In this document: positions 37,777 through 59,045 of the stretch, one piece after another
How the letters are laid out: every line of letters begins with the position of its first letter
Numbering within the stretch: position 1 is the stretch's first letter
IMG/VR virus record: IMGVR_UViG_2974717242_000001
Location: 18,357-82,356 of that record
Direction: 5' to 3' (one strand)
DNA length: 64,000 nucleotides
Source of the DNA: Bongovirus reindeer
Taxonomy: Duplodnaviria; Heunggongvirae; Uroviricota; Caudoviricetes; Vilmaviridae
The notes under the pieces: model-generated
What the model was told of the DNA's origin: nothing
The model's database searches: none
What the model saw: the letters and a program-made list of their open reading frames with translations, nothing else
Made by a program: the position numbers and the translations under genes

Positions 37777-37929
37777 ATTCTCCTGTAATCACTCTCGATG
37801 AAGCTTTAATCTATTTCATGTCCGGTTCAAGAAGGACCGGATGCGGTACACCGGAGGGGCTGGTTCCCAAATTCCAAGCCCGGTTCCTCCACTGGGACTC
37901 GACAGAGTTGAGGCTGAAGAGTCCCACGT

Positions 37930-38004
37930 ATGGGCGTAGCTGACAGGAAAGCAGCGGTCTCCAAAGCCGTGATGATGCAGGTTCGAATCCTGCCGCCCGT
38001 GCCA
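37930..38004 (+). tRNA. tRNA-Trp(CCA)
   Basis: Acceptor ATGGGCG/CGCCCGT, T-arm GCAGGTTCGAATCCTGC, anticodon loop CTCCAAA, encoded CCA end. D-stem weak. Confidence 0.55.
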
Positions 38005-38081
38005 CGTTCGATGTTCGGTGGTGACCGAACGCCGAACATGTTGGTTGAGAATTAAATAGTGGTAGTACAAGTAAGTTTCGA

Positions 38082-38451
38082 GGGGCTGTACTGGTTTTCG
38101 ATTACGAACCGAGTCCATGGAAGCGTGCCGGGAAGATACGCCCGTAACAGTTCAACCTTAATAAGCGCCGCATTTGTTGACGCTGATTACGCCGTAGCTG
38201 CGTGATCCGGTGGGGTAGAACGGTTTACCCGTTCCGTCTACCAATCCACCGTCGTCAATACGGGGACCGCAGGTACACCCAAGCATCTGCCAAACTGCTA
38301 GGGCCGTCCGGTCACGAGGACGTTAATCCCGTGTTCTTGCCCGTGGCAGATTGTGTCGCTATGCGAGGGGTGAAAATACAGAGGCACTACGCACGTAGAA
38401 GAATGAGTACAGAGAACGTAAGACGCGGGTTCGATTCCCGCCAGCTCCACC
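38082..38451 (+). ncRNA. ssrA: tmRNA (ssrA)
   Basis: 5' GGGGCTGTACTGGTTTTCGATTAC matches the tmRNA 5' consensus GGGGCUGAUUCUGGAUUCGAC. 3' end GACGCGGGTTCGATTCCCGCCAGCTCCACC is near-identical to the E. coli ssrA 3' end. G3-U70 in acceptor. Internal tag frame 38167-38205 encodes AAFVDADYAVAA-stop. Confidence 0.8.
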
Positions 38452-38692
38452 TGGGCCTGGGTTCTGGGTTCGAATCCCAGTGTGATTGAAGTGGATTCGC
38501 GGTCTGCAGCCGCGACTACGCTCCGGTGGGTAGCTCCCAGCCGCGTTCGCATGGTGTAATTGGCAAGCGCAGGGCCTGTTAAACCGGTTTCCCATCTCCG
38601 ACCAAAGGATGGGTGGTGGAAGACGAACTGGGTCTTAGGCAACCCCGTTCAGTCCTCGGCGTCCCAGCCCGCCGTCACCCGACTGGGCTAAG

Positions 38693-38767
38693 TGGGGTAT
38701 AGCCACAATGGCAGTGGCACTGGCCTGTTAAGCCGGATGAGTGTTGGTTCGAGTCCAGCTACCCTAG
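38693..38767 (+). tRNA. tRNA-Asn(GTT)
   Basis: Acceptor TGGGGTA/TACCCTA, D-stem GCCA/TGGC, anticodon stem CTGGC/GCCGG with loop CTGTTAA, T-arm GTTGGTTCGAGTCCAGC. No encoded CCA. Confidence 0.5.
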
Positions 38768-39678
38768 CGAGTGGAAGGTCGTCGGTTCGATTCCGACAGC
38801 GGAACAAACGGGCCGCTTAGCTCAGTGGCAGAGCATCCACGTTAACAACATTTGGGGCATGGCCCATAAGCTGAGGTGACTCAGTGAAAGGTGATGGTGA
38901 CATCTCGCCGCCCGCAAGGGTTCCCCATGCAATCCAAACCTTAAGCAGTTCCCGTTGGGGGCTGCCAGGTTGCGAGTTCATCGTGTGACCAACGCCAAGT
39001 GGTGAGGTCGGGTTCGGTACGTGCCGAAGGGCCAGCGAGTAACGGATGAGCAGCCTGTGGAATGGAAGGAACTTAAGTCAGAGCCTTGGCGGGTGACGGC
39101 GGGTTCCATGACCGATCTCGCGTGGACGACGGTTCACAATGCGGTTGAGGGAGAGAGTGAGTAGCCCGCCAGGCCAAAGCTCGAGAGGCGTGAAGCATTC
39201 TGTGCCCCAAAAGGGTTCGGAACTTCATGGGGAAGCACGTCTCTAGTCACAACTACCATGCTATTGGTTAGCAAACTGTCATTGAACACAGTTGTAGAGG
39301 TTCGACTCCTCGCAAAGCAAAAGCCTTTCCCTGCCGATGAGCAAAAGCGCCTTAATCCCCGACTGGGAGCAGAATCGGGGCAGGACGAGCCCGCAAGGCG
39401 GATCCTGTTTGTAGACAAGTAGTGCAGCCATGGGACGGCCATCCTAACGGCGAATCAAAAGTCGCAGAGTAGCTGTCGGTATGACGAGTGGTTCACGTTA
39501 CGGACCAGGCGTTGCACGTACACAGGGGACTGTGTGGACAAGTCGGGAATCCATAATCCGACGAAAGCGTGTGGTCGAGCGGTTTAGTCTCTAGCCCGCT
39601 CAACAATCGGAATGTGCGTCTAATGGCAAGGCGTGGGGGCACCCAGATGCAGGTTCGAATCCTGACTTTCCGGCATTT

Positions 39679-39755
39679 CCCGTGGCGAATTGGCGATCAC
39701 CGGTGACTGTAAATCACCCGCTTCGGCTGTGTAGGTTCGACTCCTGCCTGCGGGA
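39679..39755 (+). tRNA. tRNA-Tyr(GTA)-like
   Basis: Acceptor CCCGTGG/CTGCGGG (C1 start), perfect anticodon stem GGTGA/TCACC with loop CTGTAAA, 12-nt variable arm, T-arm GTAGGTTCGACTCCTGC. D-arm irregular. Confidence 0.4.
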
Positions 39756-39901
39756 CGACGAGACTGACGGGGCACAGTAGGTTCCAGGCTTGCGGCTGAA
39801 TCGAACACCCCCGCCCGCAAGGCCAGTCTCAATGACAACGCCTCGAAAACGTTGTCATCCGCTAGTGGAGAGGTGAGCGGACTGAATTGCCTTTCCAGCA
39901 T

Positions 39902-39973
39902 TGCCTGCTGGTGTAAATGACAGCACACGAAGCTCTGACCTTCGTAGTTCAGGTTTGAATCCTGGGCGGGCAT
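39902..39973 (+). tRNA. tRNA-Gln(CTG)
   Basis: Acceptor TGCCTGC/GCGGGCA (U1-A72 as in bacterial tRNA-Gln), D-stem GTGT/GCAC, anticodon stem CGAAG/CTTCG with loop CTCTGAC, T-arm TCAGGTTTGAATCCTGG. Confidence 0.55.
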
Positions 39974-40016
39974 CGAGATGGGTTGTCGGTATACCTCCAT
40001 GAAGGGAACCGTCACT

Positions 40017-40090
40017 CAGTCTGAGGTGTAAGTGGTTTGCATGGCCGGTTTGGATCCGGGCGGTTCGAGGTTCGAGTCCTCGCAGACTGA
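40017..40090 (+). tRNA. tRNA-Pro(TGG)
   Basis: Perfect acceptor CAGTCTG/CAGACTG (C1 start), anticodon loop TTTGGAT, perfect T-arm CGAGGTTCGAGTCCTCG. Confidence 0.5.
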
Positions 40091-40244
40091 CGTACCCGTT
40101 GGTGGATCGGATAACCACCCGACCTGATCTCAGGTTCCGTTAAGCAAATGAGATCGTGCCCCGTCGCCGTGGGATATGTCAGAAAAATCACGGGATCCCA
40201 TTGACCCGAGGGATTACGGCCTGATCAGCCGATAGGGTCAACCT

Positions 40245-40327
40245 GGAGGGATCCGCTGAATGGTCGGCAACCGGCGTCGAATACCGGGGCTGGGTGAAAC
40301 CAGGGGGTTCGATTCCTCATCCCTCCG
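40245..40327 (+). tRNA. tRNA-Ser(CGA), type II
   Basis: Acceptor GGAGGGA/TCCCTCC, anticodon loop GTCGAAT, long variable arm hairpin CTGG-GTGAAA-CCAG, T-loop TTCGATT. 83 nt. Confidence 0.55.
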
Positions 40328-40525
40328 CTCTGGAGAGTGGAACCATCTAGGTGGATGGCCGCGATTGCTAATCGCGGGGCAGCGTAACGCTGTGTGGATC
40401 GTGCCCACTCCTCTCCGCAATGAGAATCTAGCTGGCCAGCCATCAGGGTGTCGGTTCAACTCCGACAGGGAAAACCTGTGATTCTCAGGGGGTGCGGTTG
40501 GAGTCATGACCGTCGCATCCCATAT

Positions 40526-40598
40526 CGGGTTGTAGCTCAATTGGAAGAGCGCTGGCTTGAAACCCCAGAGGCTTCTGGTTCGAATCCAGGCATCCCGG
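40526..40598 (+). tRNA. tRNA-Phe(GAA)
   Basis: Canonical D-arm TAGCTCAATTGGAAGAGC, anticodon loop TTGAAAC, T-arm TCTGGTTCGAATCCAGG, acceptor CGGGTTG/CATCCCG. Confidence 0.6.
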
Positions 40599-40612
40599 CG
40601 CTAGGAGGCACT

Positions 40613-40804
40613 ATGTCGAACATGATGCGGATGCTCCGCAGGCCCCAGTGTAATCGGGGGTGTTGCGGTGGCGAACGTGAGCGTGAGGCCCAGCGGCCAG
40701 CCGAGAGGCGGCGAGTGCAGGCCGAGATCGACATGGAGACCTACGACATGACGCCAGACGCGGAATACGCGTGGCTGGAGTACATGTCAGGCATTGCGCG
40801 GTAG
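40613..40804 (+). CDS. small Cys/Arg-rich protein
   Basis: RBS CTAGGAGGC before ATG 40613. 63 aa, MSNMMRMLRRPQCNRGCCGG. Embedded between tRNAs. Track ORF 40448-40804 over-extends it. Confidence 0.5.
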   Translation: MSNMMRMLRRPQCNRGCCGGEREREAQRPAERRRVQAEIDMETYDMTPDAEYAWLEYMSGIAR

Positions 40805-41380: not shown

Positions 41381-41638
41381 ATGGGTGTGTTGCTCTCCAG
41401 GGCCGAGCTGGAGCGCCTCAAGGAGGCTGCGGCATGGTTGGATCAGCAGCCGGAAGTTAAGGCGCGAGAGAGGCAGCTAGCGGCCATTCTGGAGCACGAG
41501 ATGCGCCTGGCCGGATGGGATGGTACTGGGGATCTTCGGCCGTGGTTCACGCGGTGCATGGAGATCAACCTCGCTTTGGATCAGACGCAGGGTCGACCGC
41601 CGTCGATTCAGAACTGGCCAGGCTATGAGGCTCGCTAG
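41381..41638 (+). CDS. hypothetical protein
   Basis: RBS GAAGGGG before ATG, 85 aa. 3' end overlaps the following tRNA. Confidence 0.5.
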   Translation: MGVLLSRAELERLKEAAAWLDQQPEVKARERQLAAILEHEMRLAGWDGTGDLRPWFTRCMEINLALDQTQGRPPSIQNWPGYEAR

Positions 41639-41702
41639 GCAAACTGGCAAAGCCGCCTGATTCAGAATCAGGTGCTTCCGAGTTCGACTCTCGGGCGAGC
41701 TA
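41629..41702 (+). tRNA. tRNA with CAG anticodon (Leu by anticodon) but short variable loop
   Basis: Acceptor GGCTCGC/GCGAGCT, anticodon stem CCTGA/TCAGG with loop TTCAGAA, perfect T-arm CCGAGTTCGACTCTCGG, variable loop only 4 nt. Confidence 0.45.
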
Positions 41703-41763
41703 CGTTTCACGCGGAGGTCTACGGGCTGATGCGGTTATTACTGGTCTGACGACCTGGAGATGA

Positions 41764-58822: not shown

Positions 58823-58950
58823 TCAGAGTTCACCGCCCTTGCGCAGCTTCTGACGGATGGCGCGGCGGTCGGCTCGCTTGAGCTTCTTGCGGTCACCCAA
58901 GCGACGCTCGCCGTGGACCCCGAGCATGCGGCCATGGTTGGAAACGTACA
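58823..58950 (-). CDS. small basic protein (42 aa)
   Basis: Leader AGAGAAGGGATTACAGAT-ATG. MYVSNHGRMLGVHGERRLGDRKKLKRADRRAIRQKLRKGGEL. Below track cutoff. Confidence 0.4.
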
Positions 58951-59045
58951 TATCTGTAATCCCTTCTCTGTGTGTGTATTTCACTGTCTACAGACAGCAG
59001 AGAGCCCACCGACCGTGTGGCCGATGGGCTCTCCTCCGTGTGTAG

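What the first reader, a model, noticed from the sequence alone, without database searches (positions are those of the whole stretch)
38452..39678. ORF-free 1.2-kb block of orphan T-arms, a tRNA 5' half, D-armless tRNA-like elements and GCAA-tetraloop hairpins
Between the tmRNA and the next intact tRNAs there are perfect T-arm hairpins with no matching 5' acceptor strand (CTGGGTTCGAATCCCAG at 38463; GTCGGTTCGATTCCGAC plus acceptor-like AGCGGAA at 38781). A canonical tRNA 5' half GGGCCGCTTAGCTCAGTGGCAGAGC at 38808 has no cognate 3' half. Two short tRNA-like elements lack D-arms (39260-39320 with an 8-nt anticodon loop; 39608-39673). GCCCGCAAGG(C/G) GNRA hairpins occur at 38913, 39386 and 39800. 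This looks like tRNA gene decay or rearrangement, or an unrecognised structured RNA. I could not fold it into a known family by eye.
Basis: seen in the sequence. Interest (0 to 1): 0.6.

Follow-up and report, generated by a model that had tools for sequence, protein, structure and literature searches.

The report
GOLLD RNA flanked by tRNA mimics
The puzzling block is mostly the already catalogued giant GOLLD RNA of mycobacteriophage Reindeer, and its "orphan" tRNA pieces are decayed tRNAs plus two conserved tRNA look-alikes whose halves sit in swapped order.

Summary
The window is Mycobacterium phage Reindeer (cluster M). The block is neither tRNA-free nor unrecognised.

- **GOLLD RNA.** Positions 39183-39597 match Rfam GOLLD over the full model (206 bits, cut-off 150). 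This exact locus is already in a published GOLLD alignment. Positions 38850-39182 are its 5' domain, with 34 of 57 predicted pairs showing compensatory changes. Two of the three GCAA hairpins belong to GOLLD.
- **Decayed tRNAs.** The element at 39260-39320 is a decayed tRNA in the GOLLD linker, a known feature of GOLLD. The element at 39608-39673 keeps its acceptor, D and T arms but has a truncated anticodon arm.
- **Permuted tRNA-like domains.** The orphan T-arm at 38781 and the tRNA 5' half at 38810 form one circularly permuted tRNA-like domain (38769-38842). A larger version follows the tmRNA (38453-38577). Both covary across relatives. They resemble the tRNA-like core of YrlA Y RNAs but lack the Ro60-binding stem, and the phage has no annotated Ro60 gene.

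Similar capped-acceptor modules occur in other phage tRNA arrays. Their function is unknown. GOLLD is old news. The permuted modules are a modest new variant.

The parts
38082..38452 (+). Phage tmRNA. It forms the left boundary of the finding and is not annotated in the Reindeer record.
   Evidence: Rfam RF00023, 95.8 bits against a cut-off of 47. Homologues are annotated as tmRNA in Bongo, PegLeg, Aziz and Rey.
38453..38577 (+). Block A, an expanded circularly permuted tRNA-like domain.
   Evidence: RNAalifold on Reindeer, Bongo, Nanosmite and Rey predicts this topology. It gives 38 pairs, 13 of them with compensatory changes. Block A is absent from Estes and MrMagoo and replaced in Aziz. Compact versions sit directly after the tmRNA in M. 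abscessus-type prophages: L027 at 56.8 bits, and L022, L031 and L034 at 38.8 bits.
38586..38692 (+). Block B, a conserved structured leader just upstream of tRNA-Asn with three hairpins. Its role is unknown.
   Evidence: It is present in all 7 cluster M loci compared. RNAalifold on 6 sequences gives 26 pairs, 9 with compensatory changes. A possible pseudoknot (CCCAG with CTGGG) was seen by eye only.
38693..38768 (+).
   Evidence: ARAGORN. Rfam tRNA 46.7 bits. Annotated as gene 94 in NC_053516.
38769..38842 (+). Compact circularly permuted tRNA-like domain. Its parts in order are: anticodon-stem 3' strand (38771-38775), V loop AGGUC, T arm (38781-38797), loop-capped acceptor hairpin (38798-38804 with 38811-38817), U8 A9, D arm (38820-38834), and anticodon-stem 5' strand (38836-38840). 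There is no anticodon loop.
   Evidence: Homologues follow tRNA-Asn in Estes, MrMagoo, Aziz and Rey. With the named structure, 97.6% of cells pair and 8 of 21 pairs show changes on both sides. Slid controls pair at 30-49%. Covariance model R1 scores 81.9 bits here. Rfam YrlA gives only sub-threshold hits: 31.9 bits here and 43.6 bits in Rey, limited to the tRNA-like core. The minimum-free-energy fold recovers the closing stem, T arm and acceptor hairpin, z = -2.4.
38850..39182 (+). GOLLD 5' domain. It includes the GCAA-capped hairpin at 38910 and overlaps the annotated CDS gp95 (39021-39164), which is probably spurious.
   Evidence: It aligns to all 32 cluster M-type phage records and to distant GOLLD loci, including AT-rich ones. 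RNAalifold on 12 diverse sequences gives 57 pairs, 34 with compensatory changes. The gp95 reading frame is not conserved.
39183..39603 (+). GOLLD 3' domain. It comprises the first hairpin (about 39183-39245), the variable linker, and the conserved core with the GCAA hairpin at 39389. The last hairpin extends a few nt beyond the Rfam end at 39597.
   Evidence: Rfam RF02032, 206.1 bits against a cut-off of 150, E = 9e-57, model positions 1-416 of 416. The same slot scores 182-216 bits in 8 relatives. NC_053516.1:57539-57953, which equals window 39183-39597, is listed in the published GOLLD alignment.
39258..39325 (+). Degenerate tRNA in the GOLLD linker. It has a 2-bp D stem, a 6-bp anticodon stem with an 8-nt loop, a 4-bp T stem and no acceptor stem.
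   Evidence: The same slot holds ARAGORN-called tRNAs in Estes (Leu), Rey (Ser), L011, L012, L014, L015, L016 and L027. Bongo, MrMagoo and Aziz carry the same degenerate copy with a 7-nt loop. tRNAs or pseudo-tRNAs in the GOLLD linker are reported in PMC12286853, PMC12990946 and PMC6582537.
39608..39673 (+). tRNA-like element abutting the GOLLD 3' end. The acceptor (CGGAAUG/CUUUCCG), D arm and T arm are kept. The anticodon arm is cut down to a 3-bp stem with a 4-nt loop (GGG-GGCA-CCC).
   Evidence: Rfam tRNA 24.4 bits, below the cut-off of 29. ARAGORN does not call it. The cloverleaf fold shows the short arm. Homologues with the same acceptor are annotated tRNA-Arg (Bongo) and tRNA-Ala(cgc) (Estes, Aziz, Rey).
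39679..39756 (+). tRNA-Tyr(GUA), the right boundary of the finding.
   Evidence: ARAGORN. Annotated as gene 96. Rfam gives only 22.2 bits.

Best explanation
The block is a stretch of non-coding RNA genes inside the tRNA/tmRNA array of temperate mycobacteriophage Reindeer. On the + strand the order is:
1. tmRNA
2. an expanded permuted tRNA-like domain (block A)
3. a structured leader (block B)
4. tRNA-Asn
5. a compact permuted tRNA-like domain
6. GOLLD RNA, about 750 nt (5' domain, linker with a decayed tRNA, conserved 3' domain)
7. a tRNA-like element with a truncated anticodon arm
8. tRNA-Tyr

**Shown here**
- The identity of GOLLD.
- The structure and conservation of its 5' domain.
- The permuted topology and covariation of the two tRNA-like domains.
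- The decayed state of the two tRNA remnants.

**Inferred**
- The array is transcribed as one precursor.
- Host RNase P and 3' tRNA-processing enzymes cut at the flanking tRNA and tRNA-like structures. These cuts would define the GOLLD ends, much as the tRNA-like mascRNA defines the MALAT1 3' end.
- GOLLD then self-assembles into a multimeric RNA cage, as solved for GOLLD env-38, with the linker pseudo-tRNA facing the interior.
- The permuted domains fold into tRNA-shaped L structures without an anticodon loop and act as tRNA mimics. By analogy with M. smegmatis YrlA, they may be nicked by RNase P in the acceptor cap and given a CCA end. The phage has its own CCA-adding enzyme.

The biological purpose of the cage and of the mimics is not known.
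For: **Source genome.** 100% identity to NC_053516.

**GOLLD.**
- Rfam 206.1 bits against a cut-off of 150, full-length model.
- The same slot scores 182-216 bits in 8 relatives.
- This locus is listed in the published GOLLD alignment.
- 5' domain: 34 of 57 predicted pairs are compensatory across 12 diverse loci.

**tRNAs bracket GOLLD.**
- In Bongo and PegLeg, tRNA-Asn abuts the first base of the 5' domain.
- A tRNA or tRNA-like element starts 4-10 nt after the last GOLLD hairpin in every relative.
- The linker slot holds tRNAs of many identities in other loci.

**Compact permuted domain.**
- 97.6% paired, 8 of 21 pairs compensatory, slid controls 30-49%.
- Reindeer and Estes differ by four double compensatory changes in the closing and T stems, with none disruptive.

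**Expanded domain.** 13 of 38 pairs compensatory.

**Independent instances.** Further copies follow the tmRNA in M. abscessus-type prophages.

**Literature.**
- Cage structure, and tRNAs in the linker: PMC12286853 and PMC12990946.

**Phage genes.** The phage encodes a CCA-adding enzyme and RtcB.
Against: - No expression or end-mapping data for Reindeer were available. Co-transcription, the processing sites and cage formation are all inferred.
- The promoter and terminator scan was uninformative.
- The permuted domains are optional. Bongo, PegLeg and Nanosmite lack the compact one. Estes and MrMagoo lack the expanded one. GOLLD therefore does not need them.
- Covariation rests on only 4-6 distinct sequences. 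Exchange with other tRNA genes could explain part of it.
- In the wider viral set, only the capped acceptor hairpin is clearly better paired than in tandem-tRNA controls. The closing stem is not.
Confidence: 0.8

Rival explanations
1. The tRNA-like pieces are neutral debris. Tandem tRNA duplication, followed by deletions driven by homing endonucleases, would leave '3' half + spacer + 5' half' remnants that pair only because both halves came from the same tRNA. On this view GOLLD is real but the rest has no function.
For: The array is mosaic and flanked by HNH endonuclease genes. The modules are optional among close relatives. The linker pseudo-tRNA and the truncated 3'-slot tRNA are clearly decayed. 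In IMG/VR modules the outer closing-stem pairs are no better than in tandem-junction controls.
Against: - Between homologous copies (Reindeer, Estes, Aziz, Rey), the closing stem, T stem and acceptor stem change by paired or wobble-preserving substitutions with almost no disruptions. The two strands of the closing stem lie 65 nt apart in permuted order, so conversion from a normal tRNA cannot restore them.
- The acceptor caps are short and are often stable tetraloops (GAAA, UUCG, GCAA). They are 89% paired against 44% in controls.
- No resident tRNA is a close parent.
Confidence: 0.15
2. The compact module is a true Y RNA (YrlA family). It would bind the host Ro60 orthologue (Rsr) and redirect the Rsr/PNPase RNA-decay machine during infection.
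For: YrlA is the best Rfam family for 38761-38861 (31.9 bits, E about 1e-5 in the local scan) and for Rey (43.6 bits). The T-arm, capped acceptor and D-arm order is that of YrlA (PMC4201824). M. smegmatis has Rsr and YrlA. In bacteria YrlA often sits near rtcB, and the phage has rtcB.
Against: - Scores are far below the YrlA cut-off of 69.
- Matches cover only the tRNA-like core (model positions 23-85). The Ro60-binding stem with the GNCGAAN0-1G motif is not matched.
- The 5' flank is taken up by tRNA-Asn 2-3 nt away, so no long terminal stem can form.
- No Ro60/TROVE gene is annotated in the phage.
Confidence: 0.06
3. The permuted modules are real, circularly permuted tRNA genes. The ends would be joined by the phage RtcB ligase to create an anticodon loop, and the acceptor cap removed by RNase P and the CCA-adding enzyme. 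This would be comparable to permuted tRNA genes in the red alga Cyanidioschyzon merolae.
For: The tRNA body geometry is canonical (7/4/5/5 helices, 5-nt V loop, U8, A14, G18G19, T loop) in Estes, Aziz and Rey. Residues flanking the closing stem look like U33 and R37-A38 remnants (by eye). The phage encodes RtcB and a CCA-adding enzyme.
Against: - The flanks do not give a consistent 7-nt loop or anticodon across homologues.
- RNase Z and RNase P leave ends that RtcB cannot join. This rests on established enzymology, not on a test here.
- The Reindeer acceptor has only 5 pairs.
- No RtcB homologue lies near the IMG/VR modules, within the limited flanks available.
- No bacterial or phage precedent was found in the literature searched.
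Confidence: 0.03
4. Part of the block is protein-coding: gp95, 47 aa, at 39021-39164.
For: It is annotated in Reindeer, and similar small CDSs are annotated in several relatives.
Against: Start, frame and C-terminus differ between subclusters. The ORF is absent from distant GOLLD loci. The region has indels that are not multiples of three and covarying helices. High-GC DNA yields ORFs in several frames here.
Confidence: 0.03

Closest known systems
GOLLD RNA (Rfam RF02032; Weinberg et al. 2009; cryo-EM structure of env-38, PDB 9MEE, Kretsch et al. 2025)
   Same: Full-length match to the conserved 3' domain. A structured 5' domain lies upstream. A variable linker holds a tRNA-derived element. 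The locus sits in a phage tRNA array. This exact locus is in the published alignment.
   Different: In Reindeer and the Rey-like phages, a permuted tRNA-like domain sits between the upstream tRNA and the 5' domain. The linker tRNA is decayed. Oligomer formation has not been tested for this member.
YrlA bacterial Y RNAs (Rfam RF02553; Chen et al. 2014, PMC4201824)
   Same: A tRNA-like domain in the same permuted order: T arm, loop-capped acceptor stem, D arm, closed by a stem in place of the anticodon arm. The D-arm and T-loop sequences are very similar.
   Different: There is no Ro60-binding helix or motif and no adjacent Ro60 gene. Scores are 31.9-43.6 bits against a cut-off of 69. The modules are embedded in a tRNA array within a few nt of a tRNA or tmRNA.
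tRNA-like domain of two-piece (circularly permuted) tmRNA genes (RF04321)
   Same: Gene order is T arm, acceptor 3' strand, intervening segment, acceptor 5' strand, D-loop region, then a closing helix. Block A has a long intervening insertion, as permuted tmRNA genes do.
   Different: No tag reading frame or tmRNA pseudoknot set follows. Rfam RF04321 matches only the T arm (30.2 bits, below the cut-off of 47). A normal one-piece tmRNA lies just upstream.
tRNA-like processing handles such as mascRNA at the MALAT1 3' end
   Same: An anticodon-defective tRNA-like structure abuts the end of a long non-coding RNA. At that position RNase P cleavage would define the RNA's end (39608-39673 sits next to the GOLLD 3' end).
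   Different: mascRNA is eukaryotic. RNase P cleavage has not been tested here. The resemblance comes from my own knowledge, apart from a weak chance-level Rfam hit elsewhere in the window.
Circularly permuted tRNA genes of Cyanidioschyzon merolae and other algae
   Same: The 3' half lies upstream of the 5' half, joined across the acceptor ends.
   Different: Those genes keep all anticodon-loop residues and a bulge-helix-bulge motif recognised by a splicing endonuclease that bacteria lack. Neither feature is seen here.

Membership tests
GOLLD RNA (RF02032) | Covariance-model score at or above the curated cut-off, over the full conserved 3' domain. | tested here: met
   206.1 bits against 150, model positions 1-416 of 416, E = 9e-57.
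GOLLD RNA (RF02032) | A structured, less conserved 5' domain directly upstream of the 3' domain. | tested here: met
   38850-39182 aligns to 12 diverse GOLLD loci. Of 57 predicted pairs, 34 have compensatory changes.
GOLLD RNA (RF02032) | Located in a phage or prophage, usually next to tRNA genes, sometimes with a tRNA in the linker. | tested here: met
   Temperate phage tRNA array. The linker slot holds tRNAs in relatives and a decayed copy here.
GOLLD RNA (RF02032) | Self-assembly into a closed homo-oligomeric cage. | not testable with these tools
   Known for env-38 (a 14-mer) and for the S. agalactiae 3' domain (PMC12286853, PMC12990946). This member would need cryo-EM or mass photometry.
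YrlA Y RNA (RF02553) | Covariance-model score at or above the curated cut-off. | tested here: not met
   31.9 bits here, 43.6 bits in Rey and 30.9 bits in Aziz, against 69.
YrlA Y RNA (RF02553) | tRNA-like domain: T arm, capped acceptor stem and D arm enclosed by a stem. | tested here: met
YrlA Y RNA (RF02553) | Terminal helix carrying the Ro60-binding motif GNCGAAN0-1G. | tested here: not met
   That part of the model is gapped or unmatched. tRNA-Asn ends 2-3 nt before the closing stem.
YrlA Y RNA (RF02553) | Encoded next to a Ro60 (TROVE-domain) gene. | tested here: not met
   No such product appears among the 159 annotated features of NC_053516. This is a check of annotation only.
Canonical tRNA (RF00005) | Cloverleaf with acceptor stem, D arm, a 5-bp anticodon stem with a 7-nt loop, and T arm, scoring above the cut-off. 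| tested here: not met
   39608-39673 scores 24.4 bits against 29, is not called by ARAGORN, and has an anticodon arm of 3 bp plus a 4-nt loop. 39258-39325 is not detected at all. By contrast, 38693-38768 (tRNA-Asn) meets the test at 46.7 bits.
Circularly permuted tRNA gene (algal type) | All 76 tRNA positions present, including the anticodon loop, with a defined processing motif at the termini. | tested here: not met
   No consistent anticodon-loop residues flank the closing stem across homologues. Circular intermediates cannot be tested here.

The most novel reading that the evidence does not exclude
Anticodon-less, circularly permuted tRNA-like modules (T arm, tetraloop-capped acceptor stem, D arm) may be a widespread and so far unnamed gene class in phage tRNA arrays.

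A deliberately narrow pattern scan found 19 distinct copies in IMG/VR that neither ARAGORN nor Rfam calls. Further copies follow the tmRNA or precede GOLLD in cluster M-type mycobacteriophages.

They would be functional tRNA mimics. Two possible modes are nicking and CCA addition, as in M. smegmatis YrlA, or acting as decoys or cofactors in the conflict over tRNA cleavage and repair. In Reindeer-like phages, one copy attached to the GOLLD 5' end could decorate every subunit of the RNA cage with a tRNA-shaped handle.
Probability: 0.25. Interest if true: 0.7.

Novelty: new variant of a known kind. Interest (0 to 1): 0.45.

Why it matters
**The bulk of the block is ordinary.** It is a GOLLD RNA already listed in the literature, plus decayed tRNAs of a kind already reported in GOLLD linkers. 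Showing this removes the puzzle and corrects the record. Reindeer's GenBank entry lacks GOLLD, the tmRNA and a tRNA-Phe, and carries at least one probably spurious CDS on top of GOLLD.

**The permuted tRNA-like domains are worth a second look.**
- They explain 'orphan' T-arms that standard tRNA finders ignore.
- They share their architecture with the tRNA-like core of Y RNAs but lack the Ro60-binding part.
- Modules with the same T-arm, capped-acceptor and D-arm order recur in unrelated phage tRNA arrays.

If they are functional, they add a new player to phage manipulation of tRNA biology. They would also give a concrete handle on what GOLLD cages interact with, which is an open question.

Tried and rejected
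No Rfam hit, even at E <= 10, in 37900-40400.
- **gp95 as a real gene.** Rejected on frame and extent conservation.
- **Block A plus block B as a second, permuted tmRNA.** Only the T arm matches RF04321, and I saw no tmRNA-style tag frame by eye.
- **Promoter and terminator scan.** Counts were at or below shuffle expectation, so nothing can be said about transcription units.
- **RtcB or CCA-enzyme linkage of the IMG/VR modules.** tblastn found none in the flanks held, which are only 3-15 kb.
- **Closing stem in IMG/VR modules.** The outer three pairs are no better than in tandem-tRNA junction controls, and the model-fitted alignment inflates both. I therefore claim the closing stem only for the cluster M and M. 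abscessus set.
- **Parent tRNA of the module among Reindeer's own tRNAs.** None is close.
- **Homology of the Reindeer 5' domain to the env-38 5' domain.** The construct sequence was retrieved, but only short motifs looked similar by eye, so I make no claim.
- **Papers not held.** Weinberg 2009 (PMC4140389) and Morgado 2020 (PMC7549688) were unavailable. What I say about them comes from papers that cite them.
- **Literature searches** for permuted tRNA-like elements in phages found nothing relevant.
Full report
**Source and context.** The 1,349 nt around the finding are 100% identical to Mycobacterium phage Reindeer (NC_053516; window position = record position minus 18,356). They are 76-92% identical to other cluster M phages and to M. 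abscessus prophages. The finding lies in the phage's tRNA array. ARAGORN finds 20 tRNAs between 37930 and 43551, and Rfam finds a tmRNA at 38082-38452. The phage also encodes a CCA-adding enzyme (gp49), an RtcB ligase (gp117) and an RF-1-domain protein. This set of genes is known for cluster M.

**Check of the observation.** All the listed motifs exist within 0-13 nt of the stated coordinates.
- The T-loop motif GGTTCRANTCC occurs 17 times in the window against 0.24 expected.
- GCCCGCAAGG occurs 4 times against 0.2 expected.

Three statements do not hold.
- An intact tRNA-Asn(GUU) sits at 38693-38768 (ARAGORN; Rfam 46.7 bits; annotated).
- The '5' half without a 3' half' does have its 3' half, directly upstream.
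- The element at 39608-39673 has a D arm and lacks a proper anticodon arm instead.

**GOLLD RNA.**
- Rfam's GOLLD model matches 39183-39597 end to end at 206.1 bits (cut-off 150, E = 9e-57).
- The same slot scores 182-216 bits in eight relatives.
- The published GOLLD alignment of Kretsch et al. 2025 lists NC_053516.1:57539-57953. That range is exactly window 39183-39597, so this instance is already catalogued.
- Earlier work had noted a structured RNA of about 430 nt in about 81% of Mycobacterium tRNA arrays, including the cluster M type (PMC5966550).

**GOLLD 5' domain.** The Rfam model covers only the conserved 3' domain. The roughly 335 nt upstream (38850-39182) align to all cluster M-type records. 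They also align to distant GOLLD loci found with a conserved motif in genome and viral collections, some of them AT-rich. RNAalifold on 12 diverse sequences predicts 57 pairs, and 34 of them show compensatory changes. This is the GOLLD 5' domain. The GCAA hairpins at 38910 and 39389 are parts of the 5' and 3' domains. The third, at 39813, lies outside GOLLD and was not studied.

**The annotated CDS gp95.** gp95 (39021-39164) falls inside these helices. Its start, frame and C-terminus differ between subclusters, and it is absent from distant loci. I consider it a spurious call.

**tRNA remnants tied to GOLLD.**
- *Linker slot.* After the first hairpin of the 3' domain comes the variable linker. 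In Estes, Rey and several mycobacterial or prophage loci it holds an ARAGORN-called tRNA of varying identity (Leu, Ser, His, Gln, Met). In the two cases listed by Rfam (Estes and Rey), the match covers model positions 3-68 only, so the acceptor stem is shortened.
- *Reindeer's linker.* Reindeer, Bongo, MrMagoo and Aziz carry a degenerate copy instead. It has a 2-bp D stem, a 6-bp anticodon stem, a 4-bp T stem and no acceptor stem. Reindeer alone has an extra base that makes an 8-nt loop. Embedded tRNAs or pseudo-tRNAs in this linker are already reported.
- *3' slot.* A tRNA-type structure with the acceptor CGGAAUG/CUUUCCG follows 4-10 nt after the last GOLLD hairpin in all cluster M phages compared except PegLeg (a different tRNA-Gln) and Nanosmite. 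It is annotated tRNA-Arg or tRNA-Ala in the relatives. In Reindeer the anticodon arm is cut down to GGG-GGCA-CCC, so it cannot decode.

**Permuted tRNA-like domains.** Read in order, the sequence after tRNA-Asn contains:
1. an anticodon-stem 3' strand
2. a 5-nt variable loop, AGGUC
3. a T arm
4. an acceptor stem closed by a loop
5. U8 and A9
6. a D arm
7. an anticodon-stem 5' strand

This is a complete tRNA body that is circularly permuted and has no anticodon loop (38769-38842).

Evidence for the compact domain:
- Homologues sit at the same place in Estes, MrMagoo, Aziz and Rey. Bongo and PegLeg lack it, and there tRNA-Asn abuts the GOLLD 5' domain. Nanosmite has unrelated sequence.
- On the four distinct sequences, 97.6% of cells pair and 8 of 21 pairs change on both sides. 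Slid controls pair at only 30-49%.
- Reindeer and Estes differ by four double compensatory changes in the closing and T stems, and none is disruptive.
- Rfam's closest family is YrlA, the bacterial Y RNA with a tRNA-like domain of the same order. Scores are 31.9-43.6 bits against a cut-off of 69. The match covers only the tRNA-like core, and the Ro60-binding stem is missing.
- tRNA-Asn ends 2-3 nt upstream, so no long terminal stem can form. No Ro60 gene is annotated in the phage.

The T-arm right after the tmRNA (38464) belongs to a second, larger domain of the same topology (38453-38577). Its acceptor-like stem branches into two hairpins. RNAalifold on Reindeer, Bongo, Nanosmite and Rey recovers this fold with 13 of 38 pairs compensatory.

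A covariance model of the compact domain found compact copies directly after the tmRNA in M. abscessus-type prophages, at 56.8 and 38.8 bits. By eye, all four helices pair in them, apart from one D-stem mismatch in the 38.8-bit copy.

Between block A and tRNA-Asn lies a leader of about 105 nt. It is conserved in all seven cluster M loci compared and has three covarying hairpins. I cannot assign it a role.

**Wider occurrence.**
- A narrow pattern (V loop plus T loop, a gap, then a D arm) hit 75 viral contigs.
- After scoring with the model and removing hits that overlap ARAGORN tRNAs, 19 distinct modules remained. All sit inside phage or giant-virus tRNA arrays.
- Their acceptor hairpins are 89% paired against 44% at tandem-tRNA junctions. 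They are often capped by GAAA, UUCG or GCAA.
- A gathering-threshold Rfam scan of 13 such loci returned only tRNAs.
- The closing stem in this wider set is not clearly better than in controls. Some copies may therefore be open or decayed.
- I found no paper describing such modules in phage arrays.

**How it most likely works.**
- *Shown.* The identities and folds described above.
- *Inferred from established tRNA processing.* The array is made as a precursor. RNase P and the 3' processing enzymes cut at the flanking tRNA-type structures, and this defines the GOLLD ends. The truncated tRNA-like at 39608 keeps the parts RNase P recognises (acceptor and T-arm stack, D/T elbow) while having lost decoding ability. 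That fits a retained processing role.
- *Inferred from solved structures of other members.* GOLLD assembles into a closed multimer with the linker inside.
- *Inferred by analogy with M. smegmatis YrlA.* That RNA is cut by RNase P and receives CCA in vivo. The permuted domains of Rey, Estes and Aziz have 7-bp acceptor stems and may be nicked and CCA-tailed in the same way. The result would be a two-piece tRNA mimic attached to the GOLLD 5' end.

The purpose of the mimics and of GOLLD itself remains unknown.

**Verdict.** Most of the block is a known RNA at a known place, plus decayed tRNAs of a known kind. The new element is the pair of permuted, anticodon-less tRNA-like domains. They are a variant of the YrlA and permuted-tmRNA type of tRNA mimic in a new context. 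The evidence for selection on them is decent but limited.

Noticed in passing
window 40526-40599 (record 58882-58955); CDS gp101 at window 40448-40804: ARAGORN and Rfam (58.2 bits) call a tRNA-Phe(GAA) that the Reindeer GenBank record does not annotate. The record instead has a hypothetical CDS (gp101) running across it and into tRNA-Met. The tmRNA (38082-38452) and GOLLD are also missing from the record.
   Followed up: partly
window 40245-40326 and 40449-40465: Two more T-loop motifs fall outside any called tRNA (at 40306 and 40453). The first lies in a cloverleaf-like fold that gives a sub-threshold tRNA-Sec hit (29.8 bits). The same kind of hit recurs in Bongo, PegLeg, Estes and Rey. The second is a perfect T arm upstream of tRNA-Phe. 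The array may hold further tRNA-like elements.
   Followed up: partly
L009 about 2400-2500, and the same place in L016, L022, L027, L031, L032, L034: In M. abscessus-type prophages, the GOLLD 5' domain is preceded by a conserved tRNA-like sequence (GGAGAGC...CCGGTTGCTAACCGG...GGTTTCGAATACC...CTCTCC) with a long variable region. ARAGORN does not call it.
   Followed up: no
L079 42-188; L084 3526-4275; L077 5022-5155 and L103 2162-2290: Some viral contigs carry permuted modules in tandem (two adjacent in L079, three in the giant-virus MAG L084). Others have an acceptor arm expanded to about 60 nt (L077, L103), which recalls block A of Reindeer.
   Followed up: partly
window 41629-41703: ARAGORN calls a tRNA-Leu(CAG) here. 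Rfam does not report it at the gathering threshold, and the record does not annotate it. It lies between CDS gp107 and the ribonucleotide reductase gene.
   Followed up: no
L003 (PegLeg) 1637-1708: The PegLeg record annotates a second 'tRNA-Asn(gtt)' directly after the first. This stretch is the start of the GOLLD 5' domain and is not called by ARAGORN or Rfam, so it is probably an annotation error.
   Followed up: partly
window 38586-38692: A leader of about 105 nt upstream of tRNA-Asn, conserved in all cluster M phages compared, with three covarying hairpins and a possible pseudoknot. It matches no Rfam family above chance.
   Followed up: partly
window 38693-38842 compared with L002 (Bongo) 1565-1636: Reindeer is classed in the Bongo genus, yet its tRNA-Asn and the module after it are of the Rey/Estes type, not the Bongo type. 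This points to mosaic exchange within the array.
   Followed up: no
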